Assembly (NCBI GenBank): GCA_001661245.1
Contig: KV454018.1
Coordinates: forward strand, 245,944-309,943
DNA length: 64,000 bases
Reading direction: 5' to 3'
From: Pachysolen tannophilus NRRL Y-2460
Taxonomy: Eukaryota
The position numbers and the translations under genes are program-made. Positions 8,304-62,870 of this stretch are shown piece after piece. The notes under the pieces are model-generated. The model worked only from the letters and a program-made list of their open reading frames with translations, was not told the DNA's origin and did not search any database. Each line of letters opens with the position of its first letter. Position 1 is the stretch's first letter.

Positions 8304-9539
8304 TTAATTTAAATTTGAAGTTTCTAAATTTTTAGTTATTGTATTAATTTCTCCATTTATCTCTTGTGAATTTTGTGAATCTTGTGATTGATCAAGTTTA
8401 GCTCCAGGGTATTTACTACCTTTATTTTTCAATTTTTTAGTTTTCTTTAAATCTTTTGAATTTGATGTTCCTACAGGGTAAGCTTTTTCTTGAACTTGTT
8501 TAAATTCTGGAGTATTTTCAAATTCTTCTCTAATTGGTGCTAATAATTCATTAATTGCATCTGTTACACCAATTTTTAAATCTGGTGGTGATAATTTTTC
8601 ATTTTTAAAATCATTTTTTAAATTTTCAAATGAATTATAAGTTATAGGACCACCAAATTTTTCAGGTCTATTAATGAAAAATTCAAATTTTCCAACAATT
8701 TCAGTTTTTAAATGATAAATTGGTACTAAAACATATTCAATAAATGATAATAAACCATTTTCTTCAATATTACCTGGTGCACAAAATGCAGAATTAATTT
8801 TTTTTTTAACTTGTTTTGGATCTTCTAAAATATCAATCTTTGAATTTGGATCAGACAGTGACATCTTACCACCTTGAGCCAATCCTGGAACCATTGGATT
8901 CATTAAATGAGCTCTTTTTTTATAACCTAAACTTGGTAAATTTTCTTCAGCAAGAACAAAAATTTTTCTTTGATCAACTCCACCAAATTGAACATCACAT
9001 TCTAAATATTGTTCATCTAATGCTTGCATTATAGGATAAATCAACCCTGATAATAATGGATTCGAAACTTGTTTAACAACATCTGCACCTGCTCTTTTAG
9101 CATCATTTTGAGAAACTACATTGGACATTCTGAAAACATCCATAGTATAATCTGGTGTTAATTGATAAGATGAACCAGTAACAAATCTTAATTTTTCAAT
9201 TGGTACATTGATCGATTTTAAAATCGCTTTGATCACATATTCATAATATTTAGCTCTATATTTAACAGTTTCTAAAGGTGCTTTCATATTATCCAAATAA
9301 GCATGTAAATCTGCTAATAAAACTGTAACTTCACATCCAGCTTTTAAAAAATCAGCTAATTTTGTCATTGGAACAAAATAACCACAATGAGGTTTACCTG
9401 TTGGAGCAGTTCCTAAATAAATTTTTAAAGGTCTTTTTTCAACTTCTAAAACATTTTTAATAATTTGAGCATTTAAAACTTCTTGTAAATTTCTAGTTAT
9501 TAAGTTAAACTGTTCTTCCGGATCAGTTACTAATGACAT
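8304..9539 (-). CDS. TYS1: Cytoplasmic tyrosyl-tRNA synthetase
   Basis: [33 protein letters not shown](CTG)SDPNSKID, Lys-rich C-terminal segment. Confidence 0.98.
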
Positions 9540-10553
9540 TTTTCCAAATAACCAAATAACTATAAAAAAAAAATAAAAAATAAAAAAGAAAAAAAAAAAA
9601 CTACCCCAAATATATATATATATGCCTAAAGCAACTTATCAAAGATACAAATACTATCTATAGTCAACAAGATCAACAATTAATAATAAATCTATTGAAT
9701 TTATACTATATCTTTTGACTCATTTTTTAAAAATTTTTCATTATTTCGATTTCTTCAAAGATAGTCAAAGCCAAACAAGTCAAACAAGTCAAAATTACAC
9801 GACGTTTTATTCCACCAAAAGTCTTTACCAAAGAGATGATGAGTGATGGTTTGTTGGTGGGTTGGATCTTTGAGTCACCGATCAATGAAGGGGTAGGTGA
9901 TCATCTGTAGGAGTTTCCATGGGCGGTACTATAAGACCTGGATAAAACATGGGTTTTCCTTGGTTTTTTTTTTTAGAATGTTGATTTGATAGTTAAGGTG
10001 AAAAAGGTAATTAAGGTAAATCAGGAGTAATTGCAATTTGCTAATGATTTTTTATTGTAGATACCAAGAATTAATTAACTATAGAAGAATCTTAAAAAGC
10101 TTCCATTGGAAAGTAAAGTAAATCAAAGTGAGATTTCACAAGAACCTGATCATTCCAATAGACCAAAGAAGAACAAGAAGAAAAAAAAAAATTTTTTTGG
10201 ACGAGAAGAACTAAAGATAAGAATATGAAATTGTAATAAAATGGAGAATTACAATGTTCAAATTTGTAAATTAAGTGAAGTCTGATTATTGATATTATAA
10301 GATATCAAAGATCTAAAAGACCTGATTTTTTGCTCTTATAATGTTTTTAATTCGACGAAATTACTCTGGAGTTGTACTATAATCGTTAAAATAAACCTTT
10401 TATAGAGAAAAATACAATTTGAAAATTTTCCTTCGTAAATCTGAAAAACAAAACGTAACCATTAATTATTTATTTAATTAATTAATTAATCTTATTAATC
10501 CATTGATCTATTTATTGGGATATATAGTTTAATGAATTAGAGCAGTGCCAATT

Positions 10554-13133: not shown

Positions 13134-13467
13134 CTTTTCTGTCCTTCTTCTTGTTCTCTTGGTTTGATATAGTATTAGAAAATTAATAGATAGATTTATG
13201 TACTGCAGTGAAAAAAAAAAAATTGAAAATTGAAAAAAAAAATGCGGCTCCAAATGTATGTGGAAATCGTTATCAGTAGTCGTATCTTAAATCTATCTAA
13301 TTTTTTTTTTTTTTTATAAAGTTCAAGTTTTTTCTAATTTTTGGTTTATATATAATAGCTTTCATTCAAAGATATTGATATTTAAAGCAAGTATTTATCA
13401 AATTTTTTTTTTTTGATTTTCAGTATTTGTTCAAATCAAATTATCAGCTACGTATTATTCCAAAAAA

Positions 13468-14204: not shown

Positions 14205-14297
14205 TGACATGGACAGGAATTGAACCTGCAACCTTTCGATGACACTGCTAGAAGTTTTCAATTGGAGTCGAAAGCTCTACCATTGAGCCACCACATC
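14205..14297 (-). tRNA. tRNA-Trp(CCA) with 21-nt intron
   Basis: GATGTGGTGGCTCAATGGTAGAGCTTTCGACT-CCA-A[TTGAAAACTTCTAGCAGTGTC]ATCGAAAGGTTGCAGGTTCAATTCCTGTCCATGTCA; cloverleaf stems, A/B boxes, downstream T-run. Confidence 0.95.
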
Positions 14298-18408: not shown

Positions 18409-19584
18409 ATGCATCTCAAGATAATACTTTTGTTTTTCTTAGCTTTTCTAATTTTCGGGGAAGATTGCGATGATGGAGGCGATGAAGGTGAGGAAGAAGT
18501 TGAAGAAGCTCAAGACATGCCATGTAATCCTTTAAGATCCTCTGAATGCTCCCCAGTTCCGGCGTTAGCGAGTTCCTTTATAGAAGATTTCAAGAAAGAG
18601 CCTTCGCTTTTCAGTCTGTCTTCTACTCCAAGTGGAGTATCATTTAGTGAAGAAGGTTTAAAGTTAACAATAAATGAGAGGTACGATAATCCAGGTTTGA
18701 AGTCAAATTTTTATATCATGTTTGGTAAAGTTGAAGTTGTATTAAAAGCAGCACCTGGAAGAGGAGTCATTTCTTCTTTTTATTTACAATCTGATAGTTT
18801 AGATGAGATTGATTGGGAATGGTTTGGTGGTGATCCATATGAAGCACAGACAAATTTTTTCTCAAAGGGAAACACAACAACTTATGATCGTGGTGGTTAT
18901 CATTCTGTTTCTGAACCTCAACATCTATTTCATCGTTATACAATTGATTGGACGGAATCAAGTTTAACATGGTATATTGATGGAATACCAATTAGAACTT
19001 TATTGAATACTTCATCAGAAGGTTATCCTCAAACACCAATGGCCATTTTTCTGAGTCTTTGGTCAGGTGGTGATGAAGAGAATTCCCCAGGTACGATTGA
19101 CTGGGCTGGTGGAATAACTGACTATAATAACCTGCCATTTTCAATGATGATTTCCAAAGTAATTGTTATCGATTATTCTAGCGGTACAGAATATCATTAC
19201 TCTGATAATAGCGGCAGTTGGTCTTCAATCGAAGCAACAGGTGGTAAAATAAACGACAGAGTGGTTGAAGCTAATAGGGAATTTGCATCTTTAGTTGGAT
19301 GTTTACCAGACGAGAATGATGTTACACCACCACAATTTATAAATCACCCTGAAGACGGTGCTGAAAATAGAAAAGAATATTCTGGACCTAGAGTAAGTGA
19401 CAATTTTGTTAATCGAAACACACAGGAATGGCCGTTTCAAACGGTCATAGACAATTCAAAATCAAGTTCAAATTTAACTAATTCTAAGAATTTTACTACA
19501 GAACAAAGTGGAGCTGCTAAATCATTCTCCAATAGTTACTTATTTGCATTAACTTTAATGAGTTTTATTGCCATTATAAATTGA
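18409..19584 (+). CDS. CRH1: GH16 chitin transglycosylase, Crh family, probably GPI-anchored
   Basis: Signal peptide from ATG 18409, CNPL, catalytic DEIDWE, TTYDRGGYH, GTIDWAGG, hydrophobic C-terminus. Family is certain, exact paralog less so. Confidence 0.8.
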   Translation: MHLKIILLFFLAFLIFGEDCDDGGDEGEEEVEEAQDMPCNPLRSSECSPVPALASSFIEDFKKEPSLFSLSSTPSGVSFSEEGLKLTINERYDNPGLKSNFYIMFGKVEVVLKAAPGRGVISSFYLQSDSLDEIDWEWFGGDPYEAQTNFFSKGNTTTYDRGGYHSVSEPQHLFHRYTIDWTESSLTWYIDGIPIRTLLNTSSEGYPQTPMAIFLSLWSGGDEENSPGTIDWAGGITDYNNLPFSMMISKVIVIDYSSGTEYHYSDNSGSWSSIEATGGKINDRVVEANREFASLVGCLPDENDVTPPQFINHPEDGAENRKEYSGPRVSDNFVNRNTQEWPFQTVIDNSKSSSNLTNSKNFTTEQSGAAKSFSNSYLFALTLMSFIAIIN

Positions 19585-22491: not shown

Positions 22492-23671
22492 TCAAAAATC
22501 TTCTTCTTCTTCTTCTTCTTCTTCTTCATCTTCTTCATCTCCAAGATCGCCTTCAAAAGTACATATTTCTTCTCTTTCCATTGAATCTTCACTCAAGATG
22601 TTACGATATTTTGCAACTTTTTCACCATCGAGAGCATATAATTTATTAGCATACAAGGTGATTCTTCTAGCTTGAAGTTCTAATAAATCATCTGCTTCTG
22701 TTAATTCGAGATTTTCTTCTAAAGAAGCATCTTCATCTGAAGAAGCAATTACTGCTGGGTAACAATAATTTGTCCAAAGATCCTGACCAATAAGATAAAC
22801 GGGGACATTTTTCATCCAATTAATGACTTTTTCATTATGGCCCATATTTTTAGCAGTACGTGGATTAAATTCTTTTGGAAATTGACTAGAAGCTGTAGTT
22901 AAATTATTATTAAGAGAACCATTTTCAAATAAATCATTTGGATAAAACCCAAAATTCATAGTTGGTTGAACATTTTGTAATTCAGCAGCATTAGTAGCTA
23001 ATAAAGCAATTGCAGAAGAATTATTATTATTGTTATTATTATTATTATTATTATTATTGGCAAATAGTTGCTCTTGATCAAAACTCTTGTTGTTATACAG
23101 ATTAGTGTTATTAAAATTGATATGTCCACCAGTGTATGATGGTAAACATGGAAGACTAATATCTGTAGTTTCTTGAAACTTCCCAGAAACATAATTATTC
23201 TGAGGTCCCATTGATTTGTTAGTTGCTATGGTAATTGGCTGTAAATGTGTAGTTCTTTGTTGTTGCAGTTGTTGTTGTTGTTGTTGTTGTTGTGATTGTG
23301 ATTGAGGTTGTGGTTGTGGTTGTGGTTGTAGTTGTAATTGTAGTTGAGGCTGCAGCTGCAGCTGCAGCTGCGGCTGAACTTGTTGTTGCTGTTGTTGTTG
23401 AACTTGTTGTTGTTGATTTCTAGCAAAGCCCAAGTTAGCTGGAGTAATAGGTGAGCCAAAATTTCTTGCTGATTGATTCGTACCATCAGGAGAGATCATA
23501 ACAACATAACTTGAACTCAAATCATTATGAAACTTATTTTGAATAGGTGTAATTGCATGCTGAGAATATATAATTGGTTAATAAATCAAAACTTTTCCTT
23601 ACTTTGATTTAAAAGCTTTTGGTAATAATTACTGGTGCATATTGAAGTTCTTGGTAAACATTATCACCCAT
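22492..23671 (-). CDS. Unknown Q/N-rich protein, two exons (23633-23671, 22492-23559)
   Basis: ATG at 23671 (MGDNVYQELQYAP), phase-0 73-nt intron GTAATT...TATTAAC...CAG joins in frame to the long ORF; polyQ/polyN tracts and a compact C-terminal domain. Confidence 0.65.
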
Positions 23672-27773: not shown

Positions 27774-28279
27774 TCAAGATGTCTCTAAAACATAATTATC
27801 AATGCCAAATTCAGTGACAAATCGACCGATTCCACCTACTAGATACCAGACTTTAACATCAATATCTTCAAAGCTATCAGGGTCGGAATTTTTCAAATCC
27901 TGCAAATAAGAAAGAAATAATTGCAGTGCAGATGGACTTCTCATTTCACCATACATACATATGAAAACGATATCGTTGAATTTTTTCGATTTAATTTCAT
28001 CCAGAAACTTCTCTAAGTTCAGTTCAAAGTCATCCACCGAATAATGAAGAGATCCTTTTATATGTCCCTGTATAATCATAAATTAGTAAAATTCCGACTA
28101 TATATTCTTTTTATTCAAATAAATTCATTTCAACTTACAAAATCGGCGAAATCATCATCTCTAACATCAACTAAACCTAAATTTCCCTCACCAGTTGAAG
28201 ATCCCCCACCATCTAACCATTCCATCAAATCAAAATTTTGGATACCCTCAGGTTCGTCTTCTTCGTTTAGTATAGGCAT
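27774..28279 (-). CDS. YCH1: Cdc25-like rhodanese-fold phosphatase Ych1/Ibp1, two exons (28139-28279, 27774-28067)
   Basis: 71-nt intron GTAAGT...TACTAAT...CAG gives VDVRDDDFADF|GHIKGS; CX5R loop CMYGEMR; adjacent to PCT1 as YGR202C/YGR203W. Confidence 0.88.
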
Positions 28280-30236: not shown

Positions 30237-31127
30237 TTTCTTTTCCCCCCTCTTATTTCCACCTTAACTCTTAATTAAAGTCAATCTCTGTTTAGTTAAG
30301 TCAATGATAGACTACTATATCCAAATAGCATCAACAGAAGTTAAGCGCCGTGTATTTTGTATATCTTTTAATCAATATTTAACAGATCATTTGATTTTTT
30401 CTGCTCTTTTTTTTTTTACTGCTTTTTTTTTTGTTGAAATTTTTTAGTTTTTTTTTTTGTTTTTTTCAATTGCTCGAATAGCATGTGCTTTAAGAGAAAC
30501 AACAAGACTTACAACAACAACAATCTATCATCAACATAGTAGAATGAAACAGCAGGTATGTAGGGCTACACTTTTGGTGGTGAATTAGTTTTCATCTTTA
30601 AGAGAATGTCCAAGCTATGAAAATTTGAATTGTAGAAGGGGAGTGTTCAATTGGTCTTTGTATATGGTTTTGAATTACATCTGCACGTAATTCCGGTATT
30701 GCTTATTAAATTTATGCCTATCATTTCAACTTAAGTTTCGAGGATTTAATAATTGTAATCATCACTTTGCATTTGCATTTGCATTTACATTTGCTATTGT
30801 CATTGCAATTGTGATTTTTAGGAGTGATTGTGTTCCATGTACTCGAGTGGTTACGAGTTCCCGAGAAAGGTATTGTGTAATATTTTCAAAAATTTAATAG
30901 TTGTTACTACAATTCTGTTTAAATTTCAAGAAATTAAAGATGGCAATATAATGATTTGTTAAATATAGCATAAATTTACTTGATATTTGTCAATTATTAC
31001 TATATTATATGATTTAATCTATTTTGTAAATTGTGTAAAGGCCTGGGTGCAATGGATTTAAGTGCATGGATTTAAGTGCGATGGATTGATAGTTTAGTAG
31101 TATTGGTGTTTTCGTAAAATATGGTTT

Positions 31128-31200
31128 GCCTTTATGGCCAAGTTGGTAAGGCACCTCACTAGTAATGAGGAGATCGTCAGTTCGAATCTGGCTGAAGGCA
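31128..31200 (+). tRNA. tRNA-Thr(AGT)
   Basis: GCCTTTATGGCCAAGTTGGTAAGGCACCTCACT-AGT-AATGAGGAGATCGTCAGTTCGAATCTGGCTGAAGGCA followed by a T-run. Confidence 0.96.
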
Positions 31201-31375
31201 ATTTTTTTTTATTTTTCAAAAAAAAATTTTTTTTTCTTCTTTTAATGCCTGAAAAGACAGATAGATGGATAGATAGATAAATAAATGTTTGGATAATTCT
31301 ACAATTATAAATTACGCTAATACATTGATTCTGATTTCGATTCTAAATATATATATATATATATGGGAAAGTTTG

Positions 31376-35610: not shown

Positions 35611-35905
35611 TAATCTCCAATAAAAGTTGATAAGATACAGGGTGTTATCAACTTCTTAGGACAGCTTTGCACACTAAAATAAAAAAAATACAGTGGTCGT
35701 GTTTGAAAACACAAACAAATCAAATCTGCCAAAAAAATTTAAAAAAATTAAAACAATCGACGTGTCAGTAGCAACAGCAGTGAAAAATTTAAAAAAAATT
35801 TTTTTTATTTTTTTCGTCTTTTCTATATAAAAGAATGAGATCTTTCTACTCATCTCATAATTTATTATTTTTATTTTTTTTTTTTTTTCTTTTCTCTTTG
35901 TGCGG

Positions 35906-36125
35906 AAAACCAGTACTAAATATACCGTGTTGCTTTTTAATATAATATAAGAATTGGTATGTCAACTTTTTCTTTTGAATTAAAAGGCGTCAAGTACTTG
36001 GAGAGATAAACCTTCTTTTTTAAGAGACCATCTTAATGCCCTTTCGTATTATTATATGTCGCGTTTAATTTCTTTTATGAGATTAAACGTGTTGGATTTT
36101 GCGAGGGATGGTAGGTCAAACATTT
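35906..36125 (+). ncRNA. SNR35: H/ACA box snoRNA, snR35 orthologue (guide for 18S U1191 pseudouridylation); ends approximate
   Basis: Hairpin 1 with pocket CCGTGTT (35925-35931) / GTCAA (35989-35993), complementary to 18S UUGAC-U-C-AACACGG; upper stem GCTTTTTAAT/ATTAAAAGGC; H box AGATAA 36004-36009; hairpin 2; ACA at 36120-36122. RRPE-like, TATA and PAC-like motifs upstream; divergent from DSC3 as in S. cerevisiae. Confidence 0.88.
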
Positions 36126-37394: not shown

Positions 37395-38027
37395 ATGGCG
37401 TTTGGTTTCACCAAGGAGAGTTATCTCTTAAACTATAACCGGTTGTTTGCATTGTTATGGATTTCTGTGATTGCTAGGTTTTCTATATTATTACCATTAG
37501 TTGGTAATAAATTTTTACCTGGTGGGATTGCAGATTATTTTTTATCTGTACAGCTGTTAACATGTCTTTTTGATTTATTTAATGTTATTACAAAAATCAT
37601 TGAAATTAAAAATTCAAATTTATTTATATTGAATTTTATATCTAAACTGTTAATTTCATCAATACTTTTACAATATCCAAAGATTGCTAGAAATGAAAGT
37701 TTTAGTACATTAATTATTTCATGGAGTTTACAAGAATTTTTTAAAAATTTATACATGATTTTTAAAATTAGAAATAAAGGTATTTATAAAGTTCCTTATT
37801 TAATATATTGGTTTTATTCAAATAATTTCATTTTAGTTTATCCATTAAGAGTATTAAGTGAAATTGCTATTATTTTCTTATCCCTTAGATATGCTCAAGC
37901 ATATAAAAAATCATTAGGTTTAATAATAATACTGTACCTTTTCATATTTGTTAAAATTTATTCAACTATGTTTTCAAGAAGAAATTCTAAAAAATATGAA
38001 TATTACTACCACAAGAAACACGATTAG
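37395..38027 (+). CDS. KEG1: ER membrane protein Keg1 (Kre6-binding), PTPLA-like
   Basis: LLPLVGNKFLPGGIADY motif; multi-TM; C-terminal KKHD; divergent from ERJ5 as YFR041C/YFR042W. Confidence 0.8.
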   Translation: MAFGFTKESYLLNYNRLFALLWISVIARFSILLPLVGNKFLPGGIADYFLSVQLLTCLFDLFNVITKIIEIKNSNLFILNFISKLLISSILLQYPKIARNESFSTLIISWSLQEFFKNLYMIFKIRNKGIYKVPYLIYWFYSNNFILVYPLRVLSEIAIIFLSLRYAQAYKKSLGLIIILYLFIFVKIYSTMFSRRNSKKYEYYYHKKHD

Positions 38028-39411: not shown

Positions 39412-41964
39412 ATGTCTCGTCGTGTGAGTAGCCGCGTTAACTATAGAGAATTAAATACTCCAGATGAATTATTAGAAAATGATGATGATGAAAAAGTATA
39501 TTCTTCAGATTCTTCAAATACAAGTATAGCTTCAGATTATGGAGATTTACCAACAGCAAGTGGGGCTTTAAAGAAGAAGAATAAACTTGAAAGATCCATG
39601 GATGATTTGAAATCAAGACATAAAGATATAGAGTTTAGGGATGATGAGTTGATAAGTGCGCTGTCTTTGGAAAAACCTTTAGATTATATTCCTGATTCAG
39701 TTTCACATTTATTTGGTGGTAGTGATTTTTCATATTTAAAATTAAAACCTGATCATGCATCAAGACCTTTATGGATTTCCCCCAATAATGGTGTTGTAAT
39801 TTTGGAAAAATCTTCTCCATTATTTGCTCAAGCAGAAGATTTTTTAACTACTATTTCAGAACCAGTAAGTCGTCCAACTTTTATTCATGAATATAGAATT
39901 ACAGCTTATTCTTTATATGCTGCTGTTTCAGTTGGTTTAGAAACTGATGATATTATTAGTGTATTGAGTAGGTTATCAAAAGTGCCTGTTGCTCCTTCAA
40001 TTATAAATTTTATTAAAAGTGCTACAATTTCATATGGTAAAGTTAAATTAGTTTTAAAAAATACAAGATATTATTTAGAAAGTAATCAAAAAGATATTTT
40101 AAAAATCTTATTGAATGATGAAGTTATTGGCCCATTAAGAATCCAACGTGATTTAAATGATGAAGAACAAATAGTACAAGAAAAGGCTTCAACCATGAAT
40201 GGACTTGTGATTCCAGGAACTTTAAAACCAGATGGTACAAGAGTTAATGAAGAAGAAAAACTTTTAACATCTCAAGGTAATGAAGATGAAATTGAACAAA
40301 TTTTTTCCTCTGTTATCGGTGATGGGAAAGATGATGATGATGAAGATGATGTTGTACATAGCTTTGAAATTTCACATGAATCAGTAGAAGTTGTAAAGAA
40401 AAGATGTCAAGAAATTGATTACCCTGTATTAGAAGAATATGATTTTAAAAATGATTTAAGAAATCCAAACTTGGAAATCGATTTAAAACCTTCTACTCAA
40501 ATTAGACCATACCAAGAAAAATCTTTGAGTAAAATGTTTGGTAATGGACGTGCTAGATCAGGTATCATTGTATTACCTTGTGGTGCTGGTAAAACATTAG
40601 TTGGAATAACTGCTGCATGTACAATAAAAAAATCTTGTATTGTATTATGTACTTCTTCAGTATCAGTACTGCAATGGAGACAACAATTTTTACAATGGTC
40701 AACTCTACAACCAGAACAAGTTGCAGTTTTCACTTCAGATAATAAAGAAATGTTTTCTACAGAATCAGGTTTGGTAGTTTCTACTTATTCAATGGTTGCT
40801 AATACAAGAAATAGATCTCATGATTCTCAAAAAGTTATGGATTTTTTAACTAGTAGAGAATGGGGGTTTTTAATATTGGATGAAGTTCATGTTGTACCAG
40901 CTGCAATGTTTAGAAGGGTTGTTACTACTATAGCTGCACATTCTAAATTAGGATTAACAGCAACTTTAGTTCGAGAAGATGATAAAATTGGAGATTTGAA
41001 TTTTCTTATTGGACCAAAATTATATGAAGCAAATTGGATGGATTTAGCTGAAAAGGGACATATTGCAAATGTTCAATGTGCTGAAGTATGGTGTCCAATG
41101 ACATCTGAATTTTATCAAGAATATTTAAAACAAAGTGCAAGAAAGAGAATGTTATTATATATAATGAATCCAACAAAATTTCAAGCTTGTCAATTTCTTA
41201 TACAATTTCATGAACAAAGAGGTGATAAAATTATTGTATTTTCAGATAATGTTTATGCTTTGAGAGAATATGCATTGAAATTAGGTAAACCTTTTATTTA
41301 TGGATCAACTTCTCAACAAGAACGTATGAAAATTTTACAAAATTTTCAATATAATGATGAAATTAATACAATTTTTCTTTCAAAAGTTGGAGATACATCT
41401 ATTGATTTACCTGAAGCTACATGTTTAATTCAAATATCTTCACATTATGGTTCAAGACGTCAAGAAGCTCAAAGATTAGGTAGAATCTTGAGAGCTAAAA
41501 GAAGAAATGATGAAGGTTTTAATGCTTTTTTCTATTCTTTGGTATCTAAGGATACACAAGAAATGTATTATTCTACTAAAAGACAAGCTTTTTTGGTTGA
41601 TCAAGGTTATGCATTCAAAGTAATAACACATTTGCACGGTATGGAAAACTTACCAAATTTGGCATATGCATCTGCAAGAGAAAGAAGAGAATTATTACAA
41701 GAGGTATTATTGAAGAATGAAGATGCAGCAGGAATTGAAGTTGGTGATGATGCAGAAAATTTCATTCGTGGAGGAGTAAGTAAAAGAGTTAGAGGAAATA
41801 ATAACAACGCTCAAAGATCACTGGCATCTAGAAGTGCAGGTTCTTTAGCAAGTTTGGCCGGTGGTGAAGATATGGCATATATTGAATACAGTAAAAACAA
41901 GAATAGGGAATTAAAAGAACATCATCCTTTGATTCAAAAGATGTATTACAAAAAGAAAAAATAA
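39412..41964 (+). CDS. SSL2: TFIIH helicase/translocase XPB (Ssl2/Rad25)
   Basis: [42 protein letters not shown] at 39412. Confidence 0.98.
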
Positions 41965-43960: not shown

Positions 43961-45631
43961 ATGATGCTGCAAGGAAATCAACAAAAGCGGGATCACCCCA
44001 AACACACAAAACTTCCGTCATTTACAGAGTTAACAGCAAGTTTTGATGCATTCAAATTTAACCCAAGAACAGAGCCACCAAAGACTGGAGATGAGAGTGA
44101 GGGTGATTATGATGTGTCTCCATTAAAAATTGAGTCAAGTGAACGAAGCTTAAGTAGTGGTCCCGCTTCAACAGTGGGGTCGTCATATGGTAGTAACAGT
44201 TATTTTCCGCCTCCACCAAGCAGTGAAGTTCCACAATTTCATTCAACAACACCGTTTCTAGCTGCACACAGACATTCTATTTCTGTTGGCAGTAATATGC
44301 ATGATTCAAGGTTTTTAAACTATACTTTCCCACCTAGGCCATCTGTTCAACAACAACATCAACAACATCCGTCTCGGCAACTTCTTCCAGTATCTCATCA
44401 AAATCATCAGCAGCAATACCAACAACCATTGCCACCACCCCCACCACCACATTATGGTCCACCCCACCCAAATGTTGTACCGCATCATCACCGTCTTTCT
44501 ATTGCTAATAGACCACCTTCTTTTTCAACAGAATCGATAAATACAGTTGAAACTATGAAAAGGTCTCAAAGTTTATCAAACAATTCGTTGGCTTCAATAT
44601 CATCACCAAATAAAAGACCACCAGCGTCAGGAAACTATACAGTACTACCTCGTCATAGTCGACAGGTTAGTACACCTTCTAATGGAAGTTTGAATGCTTT
44701 GGCACAAGTTTCTAGCTCAATGGTTGCCAAGGGAAATAATAACGATGCAAATCATACTTCTCTATTGCACGATATAGAAAATTTCATTTATTCTACTGAA
44801 ACATTGGCAAATGTTGTTAATGAGATAAAAAATGATTTAATTAGACATATACTGGGGAATACAGAACTATTAAACACTCCAGAATCGGAATTAATTCGAC
44901 TTCTTTTCCATTATAGTAAAGACAACACCAACTTATTACAAGGTTCCAAAATCTTGAAAGAATCGTTGAAAAATTTCTTGTGGAACATCCCAATGGATGT
45001 TTTAGAAAATTGCATTGGTTACTCCGAAAAGGCTGCATCTGTCTTGCATGAATGGAGAATCATGAGAATTGAAGAAGACAGAAAGATTCAATTGAGAGAA
45101 CAGAATAAGTCAAAACTGAAACTGCCTCAAAAGAGAAGAAAATCTTCAGAAGAAAATTATACAAAGAGAAAAAGAGACTCCATAAATTTAAAAGTTAATC
45201 CCACCATGGGTGAAGCTCTTTTATCTGTAAGTGGTCCTGGAACTAGCAGTAGTACCAGTGCCAGAACCAGTACCAGTACCAATACTAGCGTAAATACAGG
45301 CACAAATACTGGTACCAATGCCGGTACAAATACCGGTTCTGGAACAAGTTCCAACACTCTTAGGCATGAAATCGAACCTCCACTACTGGGAGGCCTAAAT
45401 GAAGACTTGAGCCCCAAGAAAAAACTTGTATGTTTGCAATGTGATGAAACAGATACACCAGAATGGAGAAGAGGCCCATATGGTTCCAGAACATTGTGCA
45501 ATGCCTGTGGATTGTTCCATTCGAAATTGGTCAAGAAAATGGGGGTTAGAGCAGCTGCTGAATTGATGTTGGAGAGAAGGAGAGCAGGCCAGGGAACTGA
45601 CAGGAAAGTCCCCAGTGAAGACGAGGAATAA
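43961..45631 (+). CDS. GAT2: GATA zinc-finger transcription factor (CX2CX18CX2C), Gat2-like
   Basis: [29 protein letters not shown] at the C-terminus followed by KKxG...RR...DRKV. Confidence 0.75.
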   Translation: MMLQGNQQKRDHPKHTKLPSFTELTASFDAFKFNPRTEPPKTGDESEGDYDVSPLKIESSERSLSSGPASTVGSSYGSNSYFPPPPSSEVPQFHSTTPFLAAHRHSISVGSNMHDSRFLNYTFPPRPSVQQQHQQHPSRQLLPVSHQNHQQQYQQPLPPPPPPHYGPPHPNVVPHHHRLSIANRPPSFSTESINTVETMKRSQSLSNNSLASISSPNKRPPASGNYTVLPRHSRQVSTPSNGSLNALAQVSSSMVAKGNNNDANHTSLLHDIENFIYSTETLANVVNEIKNDLIRHILGNTELLNTPESELIRLLFHYSKDNTNLLQGSKILKESLKNFLWNIPMDVLENCIGYSEKAASVLHEWRIMRIEEDRKIQLREQNKSKLKLPQKRRKSSEENYTKRKRDSINLKVNPTMGEALLSVSGPGTSSSTSARTSTSTNTSVNTGTNTGTNAGTNTGSGTSSNTLRHEIEPPLLGGLNEDLSPKKKLVCLQCDETDTPEWRRGPYGSRTLCNACGLFHSKLVKKMGVRAAAELMLERRRAGQGTDRKVPSEDEE

Positions 45632-45644
45632 TCGAAGATTAAAC

Positions 45645-45684
45645 GGGCGGGACATGGGCGGGACATGGGCGGGACATGGGAGGG
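45645..45684 (+). repeat. (GGGCGGGACAT)x3 + GGGAGGG tandem repeat
   Basis: Read directly; eight GGG tracts with 1- and 4-nt spacers. Confidence 0.95.
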
Positions 45685-53885: not shown

Positions 53886-55502
53886 TTATTTTTCCAGTTC
53901 TGCCTGTTGTTGCATCACTTTTCTTCTAGCTGCAAATGATAACATTCCACTTGGCTCACCACCTTCAACGCTGTTTTCGATGCCTCTTCTTCTGCGTCCG
54001 AGATTTGCAAACAAGGATTTGGAGTCGTCTTCCGTGCTGTCTTGCTTGCTGGCATGGGTCCCGTTATTCTTGGATGAAAAATCTTTTTCTTCTTTATTGT
54101 ACTTGTTGTGCTTGCCACTTGTATTGCTATTGCTGTTGCCGTTACTGCTGATGTTATTGCCATTATGGTTAGTATGATTGCTGCTACTCAAAGCATTACT
54201 ATTATTATTGTTATTGTTATTGTTATTATTGTATCTCCTATTGTAGGTTCTATTATTGCCGTGTGAGTTCACTTTGCTGTTCCCACTATGATGATGGTGA
54301 TGATTATGTGGATAATGGCCATTACTATTGTAATGTGAGTTATGGTTGTTGTTATTGTTATTGTTGTTGTTGCCATTACCACCACTGCGCTGAGAGTTAT
54401 TGTTCAAATAGTTATTGGTTGAAGTGGTTGAATTGGTGTTAGTGGATTTTGTTATATCTTTACCGTTGAGATTATTCGTAGTAGGATTGACACTTTCACT
54501 ATGTAATCTATAGTCAAATGAAACATCCGGTACTCGATCAATAGGATATGCATCAACTACCGTGGTGATTACATCTGATCCTGAATTTAAAATTGAATCA
54601 CATTCTCTAACAACACGTAATAAAGAATCACAAATTGCACGCTTAACAGAGAAGGGAATTAATTTTTCTGTTTTATTCTCTTTACTGTTACTACTTTCTT
54701 CAGCATCATCTTCAGTAACATTTTCTTTAAATTCAAAATCATTTTCATCCAGTGAAGAATTTGTCTTTTCTTTTGATTCGTTTTCTCTTTCTTGTTTTTG
54801 AAATTTATCAAAATATAAATTAGAATTCCAAACACTAATAACAATTTCTCTTTGCTTAATACTTAAAGTCATCCCAGTAATATCATCATATAAATAATCA
54901 CAAAATTTATTTTCCAGAGAAAATAAAGAACCACCACAAGTTCTTAAAACCAATCTTTCCCAAATTAATCCAACTCTTTTCTTATAATCGGTATCATTCA
55001 TCGAATTTGACAACCCAACACGAGAAAATCTTAAGATCCATCTTCCACCTTTAGAATTTATAGGATCTTCCCATATTGGTTTAACTCCAGTTTTAAAAAT
55101 TAAAAATTGTGTACCATTTTTTAAATTTGGAATTTTTTCTAAATTACTCATTGATATCCATAATTGTTCAACAGTATCAATATTTGAAATTAATTCATTT
55201 GAATTTCCCAATTTAGGAAATTTAATTTCATCTATCGATTGTAAATATTGATCTGAATCATTAGATAATTGATTAAAAGTGTTATCACCTTCTACACTTC
55301 CAATATTAGATTCCAGAGTTTTAAAATGTCGTCTCGCTTCCTTTTTCGCAAATACCACTTTGGCCTTTGCCTTTGATTTGGAGTGATGCCATATTGTCCA
55401 TGAATAAGGCAACTTATGTACCGATGTCGAAACAGCTGAAGTAGCTGGAGATGCTGATGATGATATTGGTGATTGATCAAAAAATTTGGATCTAACCGAC
55501 AT
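53886..55502 (-). CDS. eIF4E-family cap-binding protein, class II (4EHP)-like, with Asn/His-rich tail
   Basis: HKLPYSWTIW, DTVEQLW, FKTGVKPIWEDPINSKGGRW, IWERLVL, ISVWN; ATG at 55502. Confidence 0.85.
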   Translation of the reverse strand: MSVRSKFFDQSPISSSASPATSAVSTSVHKLPYSWTIWHHSKSKAKAKVVFAKKEARRHFKTLESNIGSVEGDNTFNQLSNDSDQYLQSIDEIKFPKLGNSNELISNIDTVEQLWISMSNLEKIPNLKNGTQFLIFKTGVKPIWEDPINSKGGRWILRFSRVGLSNSMNDTDYKKRVGLIWERLVLRTCGGSLFSLENKFCDYLYDDITGMTLSIKQREIVISVWNSNLYFDKFQKQERENESKEKTNSSLDENDFEFKENVTEDDAEESSNSKENKTEKLIPFSVKRAICDSLLRVVRECDSILNSGSDVITTVVDAYPIDRVPDVSFDYRLHSESVNPTTNNLNGKDITKSTNTNSTTSTNNYLNNNSQRSGGNGNNNNNNNNNHNSHYNSNGHYPHNHHHHHSGNSKVNSHGNNRTYNRRYNNNNNNNNNNSNALSSSNHTNHNGNNISSNGNSNSNTSGKHNKYNKEEKDFSSKNNGTHASKQDSTEDDSKSLFANLGRRRRGIENSVEGGEPSGMLSFAARRKVMQQQAELEK

Positions 55503-58429: not shown

Positions 58430-59042
58430 ATTCTATTCTTATTATACTATTCTTTTTATTATTTTTAACAACTTGAAAATCAATTATAAAAACAAAACAA
58501 TAAATACTTTTATAGCAAAGAAAAGAAAAGAAAAGTATAAAAAAAAAAAAAATTTTTTTTTTTTCTTTTTCTTTTTTTCTTTTGGTCAATTAGTAGTATG
58601 AAATCTCTCTATAAGCGTAAAAAGTTAAGCGCGGTTAGCCATTAAACTACTAAATAATATATATATACATTTATATATATATATATATATAAAAGTAGAA
58701 TTGTAACAAAAAAAATTGATAAATTACAAGTTCAAATAGCAAATAACTTGTTATATAATTCTTAAATCAATACTTTTTTCTAATTATAATTATAATTATA
58801 TATATATATAATTATTATAATTATGACCAAGAAAAACCGTTTTGTCATGTTATTTTTTTGACGTTTCAGGCCTAACAAAGAAAGATTTAGAATACCCGAT
58901 TGGGAAGAAAAATAGATTTTTTTTTCTTTGTTAATTTGTTATTTCTATTGAGGAAAAAATTTTTTATTTTTTTTTTTAACTGTATTCTCAGGTTGGAATT
59001 ACTAATTTTGGTTCTGCACTTACTCTATTAGTCTTTTTCTAT

Positions 59043-60761
59043 TTAATGATTATTAGTGGTGATGGTATCCAGTGGGTCAGTTTTAAAGATTTTATCAGGG
59101 TTTAAGATTCTTAATGGATCTAGTGCCAACTTTAATCTTCTCATCACGTTTATTGTTGGTAATCCCAACTCTTGTTCCAAGTACTTGCGTTTACCATAAC
59201 CTACTCCATGTTCTCCAGTACAAGTTCCATCATATTTGGAAACTGCTCTTTCAACAAGTCTATCAGCCGCAGATTGAACTTTTTCCTTTGTTTGTGGGGT
59301 GTAAATTAATAATGCGTGGAAATTACCATCACCTACATGGCCTAATATAGTGGCCAATATATTTGAATTATCAAGGTCTTGTTGTGTATCTTTTATAATT
59401 TGTGGTAAATCTGAGATTGGGACAGCAACATCAGTAACTATTACTTGAGCTTCTGGACCTAATTTTTTCTTACCATATTCAATTGTTGACCATAAAATTA
59501 ATCTTCTTGCATCCCAAATTTGTTCTTTTTCGAGCAGATCTGTAGCAAATGTATAAGATATAGCATTATTTTTCTCAGTAATTTCTTTAACTTGTTTTAA
59601 AATTTCTTTTGCTATATTTGGTGAAGCACCAGAAATTTTTAAAAATAAAGTTGGTTTAATATCATAAATTTTTGTCAATTGTTTTGAATCATTAAGACAT
59701 TTCATCAGTTCATCGTTTAATAATTCAACAGCGTTTAATTTAATTCCACGTTGAATCAATTTACTTACTGCATTTGAAGCATCTTCAATACTATTAAATG
59801 AAACAGCAGCAATACTTTCATTTTCTGGTTTAACATGTAATTTCATAGTGACTTTGGTAACAAGTCCTAAAGTTCCTTCAGATCCAATAAATAATCCTGT
59901 TAAATTGTAACCTGCAGAAGTTTTCCTTGGACGTTGCCTAGTGGTAATAATTGTACCATCTGCAAGTACAACTTCTAAAGCAATAACATTTTCTTTCATT
60001 GTACCAAATTGAAATGCATTCGTACCACTACAACTACATGCAGTCATTCCTCCAAATTGTGCCCCAGGACCAGGATCAACACCAATCATTAAATTATAAG
60101 GAGATAAAAATTCGTTTAAATCTTGCCAACCAACTCCAGCTTCAACAACAATATCTAAATCATCTTTATTAAATTTTATAATTTTATCCATCTTGGAAAA
60201 ATTAATAGTTATACCTTGACGAGTTTGAATATAATGACCTTCTAATGAAGTACCACCAGAATATGGTATAATTGGTACTTTATATTTATGAGCAATTTTC
60301 AGAATTTCAGAAACTTGTTCAGTACTTGTAGGATATAAAATATATCTTGGTTTTTCATTAGGTAATGCTTTATGAGTATTAAAAAATGAATCTGAATGTA
60401 ATTCTAAATCTTGTTCATTATCAGAAATACCATTTTCACCCAAGATTTTTTTAAACTCATTTATAGCTTCTTTTAATTCAGATTCTGAAGCATATTTTGG
60501 AGATGATAAATCATCAAACAGAGTAGATGATGTTAAGGGAAATACGTCCAAAGGAGGATTTTTCTTATAATACCAACCTGTAATTAAAGAACCAATAACT
60601 AAACTCGTTCCAGAAATTAAAAAACTCGATTTAAAAAAACCAGAACGGGCACCAGTACGAGAATTCGAATCAATACGATAATTGGAATAAAATCTGGTAA
60701 AACTCTTTAAATTTCTTGACCGCAGTAATAATAATAAACGTCTATTAACTATTTGAAACAT
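59043..60761 (-). CDS. DLD1: Mitochondrial D-lactate dehydrogenase (FAD, cytochrome c)
   Basis: SGGTSLEGH, DPGPGA, GSEGTLG, GHVGDGNFH, GTCTGEHGVG, DPLRILNPDK; presequence from ATG 60761. Confidence 0.92.
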   Translation of the reverse strand: MFQIVNRRLLLLLRSRNLKSFTRFYSNYRIDSNSRTGARSGFFKSSFLISGTSLVIGSLITGWYYKKNPPLDVFPLTSSTLFDDLSSPKYASESELKEAINEFKKILGENGISDNEQDLELHSDSFFNTHKALPNEKPRYILYPTSTEQVSEILKIAHKYKVPIIPYSGGTSLEGHYIQTRQGITINFSKMDKIIKFNKDDLDIVVEAGVGWQDLNEFLSPYNLMIGVDPGPGAQFGGMTACSCSGTNAFQFGTMKENVIALEVVLADGTIITTRQRPRKTSAGYNLTGLFIGSEGTLGLVTKVTMKLHVKPENESIAAVSFNSIEDASNAVSKLIQRGIKLNAVELLNDELMKCLNDSKQLTKIYDIKPTLFLKISGASPNIAKEILKQVKEITEKNNAISYTFATDLLEKEQIWDARRLILWSTIEYGKKKLGPEAQVIVTDVAVPISDLPQIIKDTQQDLDNSNILATILGHVGDGNFHALLIYTPQTKEKVQSAADRLVERAVSKYDGTCTGEHGVGYGKRKYLEQELGLPTINVMRRLKLALDPLRILNPDKIFKTDPLDTITTNNH

Positions 60762-61119
60762 TTTCAACTTCAAACACCAATTTTTTGGAAAAAATACCAA
60801 TATATTTTAAAGAAAAACCACTCTATTAAACCAACAGCTACTTTAAACATCTTTTTATTTTTATAATCAACGTTACGTCGACTCACACTTTCCATCTTTT
60901 CTCTTTTGCTACTAAATAAATTGATGAAAAGTGTGGCTCAAATTCTTCTTTTTCACCTTTAAAAGAAGAAATAAAAAAAAAAAAAAAAAAAATTTAATTA
61001 AAAATGTCGGCCAAAAAAAATAAAGTAAAAAGAAATTAAACGTAATAGAATAGGTGTGGGTTGAATTATTATTGAATTAAATTATATATAAAAGATTTTA
61101 TCTTAGAGAATATATTAGG

Positions 61120-62073
61120 ATGAGATTTTTCCATTCAATTTTTATTATTTCAATTTTTTTATCAATTGTTAATTGTAAAGGTTTTTATCAAGATGTACCA
61201 GATATTTTTGAATTAGATTCATCAAATTTTGATGAAATTATATTGAATACAAATTATACATCAATAGTTGAATTTTATGCACCATGGTGTGGACAATGTC
61301 AAAAATTGAAATCAACTTATAAAAAAGTTGGTAAAGCTTCACAAGATTTATATCAAGTTGCAGCAGTTAATTGTGATGATCTGATTAATAAACCAATATG
61401 TTCCAAATATAGAATTGATAGTTATCCAACAATGATTATTTTTAGACCTCCAAAATATGATGCAATTGATCATGAAAAAAATCTTAAAGAAAGTGATGGA
61501 TTAAAATTTGCAACAGAAATTTATAAAGGTCAAAGAAGTTTATCACTGATTGTTGAATTTGTATTATCAAGAATTAAAAATTATGTTAAAAAATTACATA
61601 ATTTTGATCAAATTAATAAATATATTCAAGGTAGAACAAAGACAAATAAATCCAAAATATTATTATTAACAGATAAAAATAAACCAACTCCTCTTATTAA
61701 ATCAATTGCAATTGATTATTTATCATCTTTTGAAACTGCATATATTACAATTAAAAAAAATGAAAAAGATGAAATTTTTGATTTTTTCAAAATAGATAAA
61801 GATATTGCAAAATTACCACAAATTATAATAATAGATACTAAAGATAATCCAAATGAAAAAGAAGAAATAATTGTTTATGATGGTGATTTAAATAAAGTTG
61901 CTTTAAGTCATTATTTATCCAATTTTGCAACACCTTTAGAAGGACCTGCAAGTAAAAGAATGGATTTATTAAATAAACATAAAAATATTAATAATTCTCA
62001 AAATAATAAAAAGGACAAGAACAAAAAGAAAAAAAATTCAAAAAATACAGCTAATGCTCATGATGAACTATAA
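61120..62073 (+). CDS. MPD1: ER protein disulfide isomerase Mpd1-like
   Basis: Signal peptide, VEFYAPWCGQC, AAVNCD, FRPPK, C-terminal HDEL; near RRP36 as YOR288C/YOR287C. Confidence 0.9.
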   Translation: MRFFHSIFIISIFLSIVNCKGFYQDVPDIFELDSSNFDEIILNTNYTSIVEFYAPWCGQCQKLKSTYKKVGKASQDLYQVAAVNCDDLINKPICSKYRIDSYPTMIIFRPPKYDAIDHEKNLKESDGLKFATEIYKGQRSLSLIVEFVLSRIKNYVKKLHNFDQINKYIQGRTKTNKSKILLLTDKNKPTPLIKSIAIDYLSSFETAYITIKKNEKDEIFDFFKIDKDIAKLPQIIIIDTKDNPNEKEEIIVYDGDLNKVALSHYLSNFATPLEGPASKRMDLLNKHKNINNSQNNKKDKNKKKKNSKNTANAHDEL

Positions 62074-62150
62074 TTCTAATGATTGCGCAAAATGATCCTC
62101 CATTATTATCATTAGCAGAACAAAAATGCTCTTTAGCACACATTTTGCAA

Positions 62151-62268
62151 ACTTCCTATTTCGGAAGTCGTAAAGTGCTTAATTCTTATTTCCATTTTAG
62201 GTAATTTTGTTTTTTTTTTGTTCTTTTCAAAGAAAAAAAAAGGTGGATAGATTACCTCATTAGGTAAT
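62151..62268. promoter_or_regulatory. Cluster of three Mcm1/CArG-type sites
   Basis: ACTTCC-TATTTC-GGAAGT (62151-62168), ATTTCC-ATTTTA-GGTAAT (62188-62205), ATTACC-TCATTA-GGTAAT (62251-62268). Confidence 0.55.
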
Positions 62269-62466
62269 TATTACCCAAATGTAATGGATAATTTCCATTT
62301 TTAGTAATTTTTTGGTTGAAATTTTTTTTTTTTTGCTTTTTTTTGGCCTTTAAAAAAAGGTAAAAAAAATTGTATAGAAATAATGAATGGAAATTGGCTT
62401 TCTTTTATAACAAGATAAATAGTAAAGATTAATTCAATTGTTAGGTGATTACGTAGTTGTTTGATA

Positions 62467-62870
62467 ATGATCACAAAGTATTTCACAAAAGTTGTTGTAA
62501 AGTTTAACCCATTTGGTAAAGAAGGTTAGTTAAAAAAAAAATAAAAAAAATTTGTTTCTGGGTTGTTGAATTACCAGCAGCTTATTGTTCATTTATGCTC
62601 ATTTACTAACTATACGTTTTTCATTTTTTAAATATAGGTAAATCTTCTAGGTTATTTCTTGCTGCTATTCCACCAGCACTTAGAGGACAGTGTCAGATAG
62701 ATTATGAGGTTTTAACTAAAACATCAAAGAATAAACCAATTATAAAAGTTTCATATAAAGATAAAAAGACATTAGAAGCTGATCCTGTACATTCAAATTT
62801 TGAAGAGTTACTGGCTTATTTTGATAGACATTCAAGAAAATTGAAGTTAGATGAAGCTATAAAAAGTTGA
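62467..62870 (+). CDS. MRPL44: Mitochondrial ribosomal protein Mrpl44, two exons (62467-62524, 62638-62870); absent from ORF track
   Basis: MITKYFTKVVVKFNPFGKEG|KSSRLFLAAIPP...FDRHSRKL; intron GTTAGT...TACTAAC...TAG. Confidence 0.95.

What the first reader, a model, noticed from the sequence alone, without database searches (positions are those of the whole stretch)
8856..62813. Non-standard genetic code: CUG appears to be read as alanine
Seen: CTG at Crh1 TDYNN[CTG]PF (19132) and AIF[CTG]SLW (19051), Ych1 PSA[CTG] (27924-27926), Mrpl44 FEEL[CTG]AYFDRHS (62811), Tys1 KMS[CTG]SDPNSK (8856-8858), Mpd1 RSLS[CTG]IVEF (61546). From recalled homologs these positions are Ala (xAPF, IYAGIW, GPSAA, FQELANHF, KMSASD, KAIVD), fitting Ala better than Leu or Ser. 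Established: CUG-Ala decoding is known in Pachysolen, Nakazawaea and Peterozyma, so this is rare but not new. Less supportive sites: Ssl2 SVSV[CTG]QW (40669; Met in S. cerevisiae) and Dld1 EI[CTG]KI (Leu). Consequence: ORF-track proteins need retranslation with table 26, and some QLQLQ runs become QAQAQ.
Basis: partly seen in the sequence, partly recalled or inferred. Interest (0 to 1): 0.75.

Follow-up and report, generated by a model that had tools for sequence, protein, structure and literature searches.

The report
Known CUG-to-alanine yeast genetic code
This yeast DNA reads the codon CTG as alanine instead of leucine, a rare change of the genetic code that was already proven for this very species group in 2016, so the finding is correct but not new.

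Summary
All eight cited CTG codons are in frame at the stated coordinates. I scored 14 CTG codons of four genes (Dld1, Crh1, Ych1, Phs1-like) against 4 to 120 homologues each. Alanine was the best residue (+3.4 nats; Leu -11.5, Ser -16.3). It stayed best in 12 of 12 pseudocount settings and 4 of 4 leave-one-gene-out runs.

- Two CTG codons lie in near-invariant Ala columns (A 107/120, A 27/30). None lies in a column with Leu or Ser at 85% or more.
- Real Leu codons of the same genes sit in such Leu columns at 27/110 sites, and real Ser codons in such Ser columns at 15/115.
- Resampled real Leu or Ser codons never reach the observed scores (0 of 5000 each).

The Ala signal is weaker than for GCN codons. 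CTG sites are mostly variable, and some are Met- or Leu-rich.

The window's own public protein records carry A at 10 of 10 covered CTG codons. They lie on a 947,628-bp contig, the same length as the contig of a protein named Pachysolen tannophilus. CUG-Ala in that species was shown by mass spectrometry and by the tRNA (PMC4937558). The tRNA could not be checked here. Verdict: interpretation supported, already known.

The parts
19132..19134 (+). CTG codon, Crh1 residue 242 (ITDYNN-X-PF)
   Evidence: Column is A in 107 of 120 homologues. This is the strongest Ala site.
19051..19053 (+). CTG codon, Crh1 residue 215 (MAIF-X-SLW)
   Evidence: Column is M 50, A 28, F 26, T 9, L 3 of 120. Ala is second and Leu is rare.
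18616..18618 (+). CTG codon, Crh1 residue 70
   Evidence: Column is P 23, D 20, V 16, A 16, S 15, with no L, of 120.
27924..27926 (-). CTG codon, Ych1 (rhodanese-like) residue 52 of exon 2 (RSPSA-X-QLF)
   Evidence: Column is A in 27 of 30 aligned rows. The own record P0246 has A here.
28002..28004 (-). CTG codon, Ych1 residue 26 of exon 2
   Evidence: Column is V 8, L 6, Q 3, C 3, A 3 of 30 rows. Uninformative, leaning slightly to Leu.
28020..28022 (-). CTG codon, Ych1 residue 20 of exon 2
   Evidence: Column is E 6, S 6, T 5 and others, with no A and no L.
8856..8858 (-). CTG codon, Tys1 residue 228 (KMS-X-SDPNSK)
   Evidence: Aligned with A in S. cerevisiae TyrRS (2dlc) and with S in the three human sequences shown.
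40669..40671 (+). CTG codon, Ssl2/XPB residue 420 (SVSV-X-QWRQQF)
   Evidence: Aligned with M in S. cerevisiae and E in human XPB. The column is variable, neither Leu nor Ala.
60300..60302 (-). CTG codon, Dld1 residue 154 (QVSEI-X-KIAHK)
   Evidence: Column is L 59, M 44, V 9, A 6, I 1 of 119. This is the best Leu-like site in the window. The own record has A.
59706..59708 (-). CTG codon, Dld1 residue 352 (LLNDE-X-MKCLN)
   Evidence: Column is M 108, Q 6, T 3, L 1, V 1 of 119, with no A. This counts against both Ala and Leu.
59535..59537 (-). CTG codon, Dld1 residue 409
   Evidence: Column is E 57, D 20, A 15, with no L, of 119.
61546..61548 (+). CTG codon, Mpd1 residue 143 (RSLS-X-IVEF)
Evidence: Aligned with P in S. 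cerevisiae Mpd1 (3ed3).
62811..62813 (+). CTG codon in Mrpl44 second exon (frame 62610-62870)
   Evidence: The frame is open with no ATG. The only solved homologue, a Neurospora chain (6ywe), has V at this position.
6537..6539 (-). CTG codon in a class-I glutamine amidotransferase motif (VGVCFG-X-QII)
   Evidence: Aligned with H in 5 of 5 alignments shown. Uninformative for Leu, Ala or Ser.

Best explanation
The window is nuclear DNA of a budding yeast of the CUG-Ala clade, most likely Pachysolen tannophilus. In that clade CTG/CUG is decoded as alanine (NCBI table 26) by a tRNA with anticodon CAG that is an alanine tRNA.

Shown here:
- CTG codons avoid conserved Leu and Ser columns.
- CTG codons occupy conserved Ala columns at a rate compatible with ordinary GCN codons.
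- The contig's own public protein records already carry Ala at CTG.

Inferred from the literature, not tested here:
- The mechanism: a tRNA-Ala(CAG) with G3:U70 and A73, charged by AlaRS, which ignores the anticodon.
- The peptide-level proof.

Inferred from my tally: CTG-Ala codons look evolutionarily young. No GCN codon is one mutation away from CTG, so each new CTG must arise from a Leu, Met, Val, Pro, Gln or Arg codon. That would explain why many CTG sites fall in variable or Met/Leu-rich columns.
For: - Codetta-like score over the 14 usable CTG sites of Dld1, Crh1, Ych1 and the Phs1-like gene: A +3.4, Q -10.8, L -11.5, M -11.5, S -16.3 nats. In the same run, 22 of the 25 codon rows tested had their standard residue as top score. 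The exceptions were CTT (I first, L second, n=14), CTC (n=1) and TCG (P first, S second, n=5).
- Ala is best in 12/12 pseudocount settings and 4/4 leave-one-gene-out runs.
- Sets of 14 real Leu codons give A-minus-L of -33.5 +/- 7.6 against the observed +14.9 (0/5000 reach it). Sets of real Ser codons give A-minus-S of -16.5 +/- 7.0 against +19.7 (0/5000).
- Columns with 85% Ala or more: CTG 2/14, GCN 15/54, other Leu codons 0/110, Ser codons 1/115.
- Columns with 85% Leu or more: CTG 0/14, other Leu codons 27/110.
- Tys1 CTG aligns with Ala in S. cerevisiae.
- Own records P0001, P0241 and P0246 have A at 10/10 covered CTG codons and no other mismatch.
- P0001 and P0241 lie on a 947,628-bp contig, the same length as the contig of PACTADRAFT_82648 of Pachysolen tannophilus.
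- Literature (PMC4937558, sections 4-6 and passages read): 97.2% of 907 fully supported CUG positions were Ala by LC-MS/MS, and the tRNA-CAG has G3:U70 and A73.
- Literature (PMC4986446, passages read): Pachysolen has no CUG at highly conserved Leu positions and shares no CUG positions with other yeasts.
Against: - By simple majority the window is ambiguous: the column majority is A at 2/14, L at 2/14 and M at 2/14 CTG sites.
- CTG sites are much less Ala-like than GCN sites. Majority-A is 2/14 against 27/54 (Fisher p=0.018). The observed A-minus-L lies at the 0.08th percentile of resampled real Ala codons.
- Three columns have no Ala at all, including Dld1 352 (M 108/119).
- Dld1 154 is L 59 / M 44 / A 6.
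- The deep tally covers only 14 sites in four genes, one of them with only 4 homologues.
- No tRNA-CAG and no peptide could be examined: no genome is held, and the window has only tRNA-Trp and tRNA-Thr.
- The species name rests on a contig-length match, not on a marker gene.
Confidence: 0.95

Rival explanations
1. Standard code: CTG is an ordinary but rare leucine codon of an AT-rich yeast, and the Ala-looking sites are chance.
For: - Dld1 154 sits in an L 59 / M 44 column, and Phs1-like 54 has L in 2 of 4 homologues.
- Met-rich columns (Dld1 352, Crh1 215, Ssl2 420 in S. cerevisiae) would suit a conservative Met-to-Leu change.
- (CTG CAG)x3 lies next to (CTA CAA)(TTA CAA)(CTA CAA) in a Q-rich repeat.
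Against: - 0/14 CTG sites are in columns with 85% Leu or more, against 27/110 for other Leu codons.
- 6/14 CTG columns contain no Leu at all, against 10/110 (p=0.003).
- 2/14 CTG sites are in columns with 85% Ala or more, against 0/110 (p=0.012).
- 0 of 5000 resamples of real Leu codons reach the observed score.
- At the 12 further sites seen only in alignments to solved structures, none has Leu in the closest homologue.
- The own records read A.
Confidence: 0.02
2. CUG-Ser code (table 12), as in the Candida/Debaryomyces clade or the Saccharomycopsis/Ascoidea clade.
For: - Human TyrRS has Ser at the Tys1 site.
- Some variable columns contain Ser (Dld1 81: S 19/119; Ych1 20: S 6/30).
Against: - Ser scores worst of the three candidates (-16.3).
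- The column majority is Ser at 0/14 CTG sites, against 63/115 for real Ser codons.
- 0 of 5000 resamples of Ser codons reach the observed A-minus-S.
- The best named relatives of Dld1 and Crh1 are Pachysolen, Kuraishia, Ogataea and Wickerhamomyces, not the Ser clades.
Confidence: 0.01
3. Mixed or context-dependent decoding: CUG is mainly Ala, but a minority is read as Leu (or another residue) at some sites, as in the stochastic Ser/Leu decoding of Ascoidea asiatica.
For: - CTG sites are significantly less Ala-like than GCN sites.
- CTG sites are over-represented in Met-majority columns: 2/14 against 0/54 for GCN (p=0.04).
- The 2016 paper mentions a few fully supported CUG positions with ambiguous translation (PMC4937558, passage read).
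Against: - The same paper reports 97.2% Ala among 907 fully supported positions.
- It argues that the lack of a long variable arm prevents mischarging (PMC4937558, sections 4-5).
- The excess of non-Ala columns is explained more simply by the mutational origin of CTG from Leu, Met, Val, Pro, Gln or Arg codons.
- The p-values are weak and the sample is 14 sites.
Confidence: 0.02

Closest known systems
Pachysolen tannophilus nuclear code (NCBI table 26, CUG = Ala); Ala clade with Nakazawaea and Peterozyma
   Same: - CTG lies in conserved Ala columns and avoids conserved Leu and Ser columns.
- The own public records read A at CTG.
- The contig matches that of a named P. tannophilus protein.
- CTG density is about 3.5 per ORF (109 in 31 ORFs), against 16,824 in 5,288 proteins in the paper (PMC4937558).
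   Different: Nothing found that differs. The tRNA-Ala(CAG) itself could not be inspected, because it is not in the window and no genome is held.
CUG-Ser1 code of Candida/Debaryomyces (table 12)
   Same: The same codon is reassigned in a related budding-yeast lineage, by capture with a non-Leu tRNA carrying anticodon CAG (PMC4937558, PMC5951914).
   Different: The residue is Ser there. In this window Ser is the worst of the three candidates, and 0/14 CTG columns are Ser-majority.
Stochastic CUG Ser/Leu decoding in Ascoidea asiatica (CUG-Ser2 clade)
   Same: It concerns CUG in a budding yeast. It also shows the possibility of two competing tRNAs (PMC6041473, abstract in the search listing only).
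   Different: There is no evidence here of two meanings. The published proteomics for Pachysolen gives 97.2% Ala (PMC4937558).

Membership tests
CUG-Ala nuclear code (table 26, Pachysolen clade) | CTG codons fall in conserved Ala columns of homologue alignments, and Ala is the best-scoring residue | tested here: met
   A +3.4 against L -11.5 and S -16.3 over 14 sites. Ala is best in 12/12 settings and 4/4 leave-one-gene-out runs. 2/14 sites lie in columns with 85% Ala or more, against 15/54 for GCN. The signal is weaker than for GCN codons.
CUG-Ala nuclear code (table 26, Pachysolen clade) | A tRNA with anticodon CAG bearing alanine identity elements (G3:U70, A73) and no long variable arm | not testable with these tools
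   No genome is held. ARAGORN and Rfam find only tRNA-Trp(CCA) and tRNA-Thr(AGU) in the window. The feature is documented for P. tannophilus in PMC4937558, section 4.
CUG-Ala nuclear code (table 26, Pachysolen clade) | Peptides with Ala at CUG-encoded positions | not testable with these tools
   Literature only: 97.2% of 907 fully supported CUG positions were Ala (PMC4937558, section 5).
CUG-Ala nuclear code (table 26, Pachysolen clade) | The organism belongs to the Ala clade (Pachysolen, Nakazawaea, Peterozyma) | tested here: met
   This is indirect. Own records P0001 and P0241 lie on a 947,628-bp contig, the same length as the contig of PACTADRAFT_82648 of Pachysolen tannophilus. Own records are translated with A at CTG. 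No rRNA or marker-gene phylogeny was done.
Standard code (CUG = Leu) | CTG codons share conserved Leu columns with the other Leu codons | tested here: not met
   Columns with 85% Leu or more: 0/14 for CTG against 27/110. Leu-majority columns: 2/14 against 65/110 (p=0.003). 0/5000 resamples reach the observed score.
CUG-Ser code (table 12) | CTG codons fall in conserved Ser columns | tested here: not met
   Ser-majority columns: 0/14 for CTG against 63/115 for Ser codons. The Ser score is -16.3. 0/5000 resamples reach the observed score.

The most novel reading that the evidence does not exclude
CTG-Ala codons of this yeast may be a distinct, young class. They are seeded by single mutations from Met, Leu, Val, Pro or Gln codons, and they are over-represented in Met- and Leu-rich columns (Dld1 352 M 108/119, Dld1 154 L/M, Crh1 215 M 50/120, Ssl2 420 Met in S. 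cerevisiae). At such sites a minor non-Ala reading of CUG, or selection for Ala at former Met positions, could be at work. That would make the code change still incomplete at the level of individual sites.
Probability: 0.04. Interest if true: 0.5.

Novelty: already known. Interest (0 to 1): 0.1.

Why it matters
The point is practical. Any protein predicted from this window with the standard code carries Leu where the cell puts Ala, at about 100 positions in about 30 genes. The window should therefore be translated with table 26. The biology (sense-codon reassignment by tRNA loss and capture) is important, but it was published in 2016-2018 for this clade, and the public annotation of this contig already applies it. 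The only small addition is a window-scale illustration. CTG-Ala codons sit mostly at variable, non-Ala columns, so a tally of a few dozen sites gives a correct but weak call.

Tried and rejected
- Whole genome and tRNA-CAG search: no genome is held for this window, so the decisive tRNA check was impossible.
- Earlier notes of the scan: nothing on this genome.
- Sequencing runs: 5 runs from 2 studies hold 97% of the sampled words, but organism names are coded and no RNA holder is listed. This gave no species name and no expression evidence.
- Deep search with the Phs1-like protein returned only 4 homologues plus the own record, so its three sites carry little weight.
- The representative search with Ych1 gave only 21 distant homologues, 30 aligned rows.
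- Solved-structure alignments were uninformative at several sites:
  - Cox5: poorly aligned.
  - Cdc7: I and N in weakly aligned stretches, and one site opposite a gap.
  - eIF4E-like protein: the CTG falls in an insertion.
  - Amidotransferase: His in 5/5 alignments shown.
- Q-rich repeats: (CTG CAG)x3 next to CTA/TTA-CAA units does not discriminate between Leu and Ala.
- Literature search for 'Codetta' together with 'Pachysolen' found no paper in the library.
The same alignment was then made from the window file.
- CTG = Met was considered because of the Met-rich columns. It is rejected: M scores -11.5 against A +3.4.

Full report
**What is in the window.** The window is AT-rich yeast nuclear DNA, with 24-34% G+C in 4-kb bins. 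It holds 31 ORFs of 150 aa or more, most with clear Pfam identities: TyrRS, RSN1, GH16/Crh, Mmm1, Iki1, Rad2, a cytidylyltransferase, a Cdc7-like kinase, Dsc3, PTPLA, Cox4/5, XPB/Ssl2, GATA factors, CENPU/Ame1, ING, an M20 peptidase, an eIF4E domain, D-lactate dehydrogenase, a thioredoxin/Mpd1 protein and Rrp36.

These ORFs contain 109 CTG codons among 13,730 codons. That compares with 723 TTA, 320 TTG, 139 CTT, 72 CTA and 18 CTC. Eight of the 109 lie in an ORF antisense to a GATA-factor gene (45157-45666), which is probably not a gene.

**Check of the observation.** The Mrpl44 codon lies in an open frame, 62610-62870, that has no ATG, so it is a second exon.

**Which organism.**
- No genome is held.
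- In the homologue search with Dld1, the window's own record (P0001, name masked) lies on a contig of 947,628 bp. A 63%-identical paralogue, named PACTADRAFT_82648 of Pachysolen tannophilus NRRL Y-2460, lies on a contig of the same length.
- The window's own PTPLA record (P0241) is on a contig of that length too.
- The three own records that I recovered (P0001, P0241, P0246) are identical to the window translation except at CTG codons. There they carry A at all 10 covered sites.
- So the public annotation of this contig already uses CUG = Ala, and the species is most likely P. tannophilus. This is an inference from contig length and a paralogue's name, not a marker-gene phylogeny.
- The sequencing-run look-up returned coded organism names only.

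**Tally at CTG codons.** I aligned four genes with their homologues and dropped the own records (95% identity or more):
- Dld1: 119 homologues
- Crh1: 120 homologues
- Ych1: 30 aligned rows from 21 proteins
- the PTPLA/Phs1-like gene: 4 homologues

Fourteen CTG sites had usable columns:

| Gene | Site | Column |
|---|---|---|
| Crh1 | 242 | A 107/120 |
| Ych1 | 52 | A 27/30 |
| Crh1 | 215 | M 50, A 28, F 26 |
| Crh1 | 70 | P 23, D 20, V 16, A 16, S 15 |
| Dld1 | 409 | E 57, D 20, A 15 |
| Dld1 | 564 | N 46, E 16, T 15, ..., L 6, A 5 |
| Dld1 | 81 | K 50, P 24, S 19, ..., A 6 |
| Dld1 | 154 | L 59, M 44, V 9, A 6 |
| Dld1 | 352 | M 108, Q 6, T 3, L 1, V 1 |
| Ych1 | 26 | V 8, L 6, A 3 |
| Ych1 | 20 | E 6, S 6, T 5 |
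| Phs1-like | 54 | L 2, A 1, C 1 |
| Phs1-like | 85 | W 2, L 1, R 1 |
| Phs1-like | 180 | C 2, A 1 |

I summed the log-odds of each amino acid over these columns, in the manner of Codetta. The result was A +3.4, Q -10.8, L -11.5, M -11.5 and S -16.3 nats. In the same run, 22 of the 25 codon rows tested had their standard residue as top score. The exceptions were CTT (I first, L second, n=14), CTC (n=1) and TCG (P first, S second, n=5). Ala stays the top residue in 12 of 12 combinations of pseudocount and effective sequence number, and in 4 of 4 leave-one-gene-out runs.

**Controls.**
- Sets of 14 real Leu codons drawn from the same genes give A-minus-L of -33.5 +/- 7.6. The observed value is +14.9, reached by 0 of 5000 draws.
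- Sets of real Ser codons give A-minus-S of -16.5 +/- 7.0. The observed value is +19.7, reached by 0 of 5000 draws.
- Columns with 85% Ala or more hold 2/14 CTG sites, 15/54 GCN sites, 0/110 other Leu codons and 1/115 Ser codons.
- Columns with 85% Leu or more hold 0/14 CTG sites and 27/110 other Leu codons.
- Columns with no Leu at all hold 6/14 CTG sites and 10/110 Leu codons (p=0.003).

**Results against the reading.**
- By plain majority the window is ambiguous: A, L and M each lead 2 of the 14 columns.
- CTG sites are clearly less Ala-like than GCN sites. Majority-A is 2/14 against 27/54 (p=0.018). The observed A-minus-L lies at the 0.08th percentile of resampled real Ala codons.
- Three CTG columns contain no Ala.
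- Alignments to solved structures added 12 more sites:
  - Tys1 228: A in yeast, S in human.
  - Ssl2 420: M in yeast, E in human. Ssl2 84 and 804: T and K.
  - Mpd1 88 and 143: N and P.
  - Mrpl44: V in Neurospora.
  - Cdc7 318 and 646: I and N.
  - Amidotransferase 105: H in 5 of 5 alignments shown.
  - Cox5 109 and 115: poorly aligned.
- At these 12 sites the closest homologue has Ala once, Leu never and Ser never.

**Explanation.** The simplest account of both the Ala signal and its weakness is the published one. Mühlhausen et al. 2016 (PMC4937558; sections 4, 5 and 6 and further passages read) showed the following for P. tannophilus:
- There is a single tRNA(CAG) that is an alanine tRNA, with G3:U70, A73 and no long variable arm.
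- 97.2% of 907 fully supported CUG positions are Ala by LC-MS/MS.
- There are 16,824 CUG codons in 5,288 predicted proteins.

Their 2014 paper (PMC4986446, passages read) found that Pachysolen has no CUG at highly conserved Leu positions and shares no CUG position with any other yeast. Krassowski et al. 2018 (PMC5951914, passages read) extend the Ala clade to Nakazawaea and Peterozyma.

CTG is not one mutation away from any GCN codon. After the reassignment, every new CTG must come from a Leu, Met, Val, Pro, Gln or Arg codon. This is my inference. It fits the many CTG sites in variable or Met/Leu-rich columns: Met-majority columns hold 2/14 CTG sites against 0/54 GCN sites (p=0.04).

**What could not be tested.** The tRNA(CAG) is not in the window. 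ARAGORN and Rfam find only tRNA-Trp(CCA), tRNA-Thr(AGU) and an snR35 snoRNA, and no genome is available. Peptide evidence comes from the literature only. I did not see the supplements of the 2016 paper.

**Verdict.** The CTG codons are real, and the CUG = Ala reading is supported by the window and firmly established for the probable source species. The public records of this contig already apply it. This is a correct recognition of a known, rare genetic code, with practical value only: translate with table 26. Novelty: already known. Interest: low.

Noticed in passing
window 28068-28138 (-): The Ych1 (rhodanese-like) gene has a 71-nt intron (GTAAGT ... TACTAAT ... CAG) between '...DDDFADF' and 'GHIKGS...'. 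The own public record P0246 joins exactly these two exons.
   Followed up: yes
window 62610-62870 (+): The Mrpl44 coding frame is open for 86 codons without an ATG. The gene must have an upstream exon, which I did not locate.
   Followed up: partly
window 35886-36125 (+): An H/ACA snoRNA snR35 match lies just above Rfam's gathering score (44.4 against 40 bits), in an intergenic stretch.
   Followed up: no
window 14205-14297 (-) and 31127-31201 (+): These are the only tRNA genes of the window. tRNA-Trp(CCA) is 93 nt long and so presumably carries an intron. The other is tRNA-Thr(AGU).
   Followed up: partly
window 37395-38027 (+): This PTPLA/Phs1-like membrane protein is unusually divergent. 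Only 4 homologues at E<=1e-5 (30-38% identity) turned up in the 5.8-billion-protein search, apart from its own record.
   Followed up: partly
window 53886-55502 (-): This is a 538-aa protein with an eIF4E domain interrupted by insertions, followed by a long Asn/His/Ser-rich tail. It is far longer than canonical eIF4E (about 190-240 aa in the solved chains).
   Followed up: no
window 59706-59708, 60300-60302, 19051-19053, 40669-40671: CTG codons are over-represented in Met-rich columns: Dld1 352 (M 108/119), Dld1 154 (M 44/119), Crh1 215 (M 50/120) and Ssl2 420 (Met in S. cerevisiae). Met-majority columns hold 2/14 CTG sites against 0/54 GCN sites (p=0.04). ATG to CTG is a single change.
   Followed up: partly
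window 45157-45666 (-): A 169-codon ORF antisense to the GATA-factor gene (43961-45631) holds 8 CTG codons. It is probably spurious and inflates the CTG count from 101 to 109.
   Followed up: no
window 1851-2195, 2468, 22458: There is a run of 345 N and two single N. The 'ORF' 1745-2365 runs through the masked stretch and is not interpretable.
   Followed up: no
window 59043-60761 (-): The own public Dld1 record (P0001, 483 aa) starts at residue 90 of the 572-codon ORF, without a Met. The public gene model is therefore shorter or partial, and it omits two CTG codons of the N-terminal presequence region.
   Followed up: partly
window 23290-23400 (-): A Q-rich dipeptide repeat is built of blocks with different codon units: (CTG CAG)x3, then CTA CAA / TTA CAA / CTA CAA, then (CCA CAA)n and (TCA CAA)n.
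   Followed up: yes
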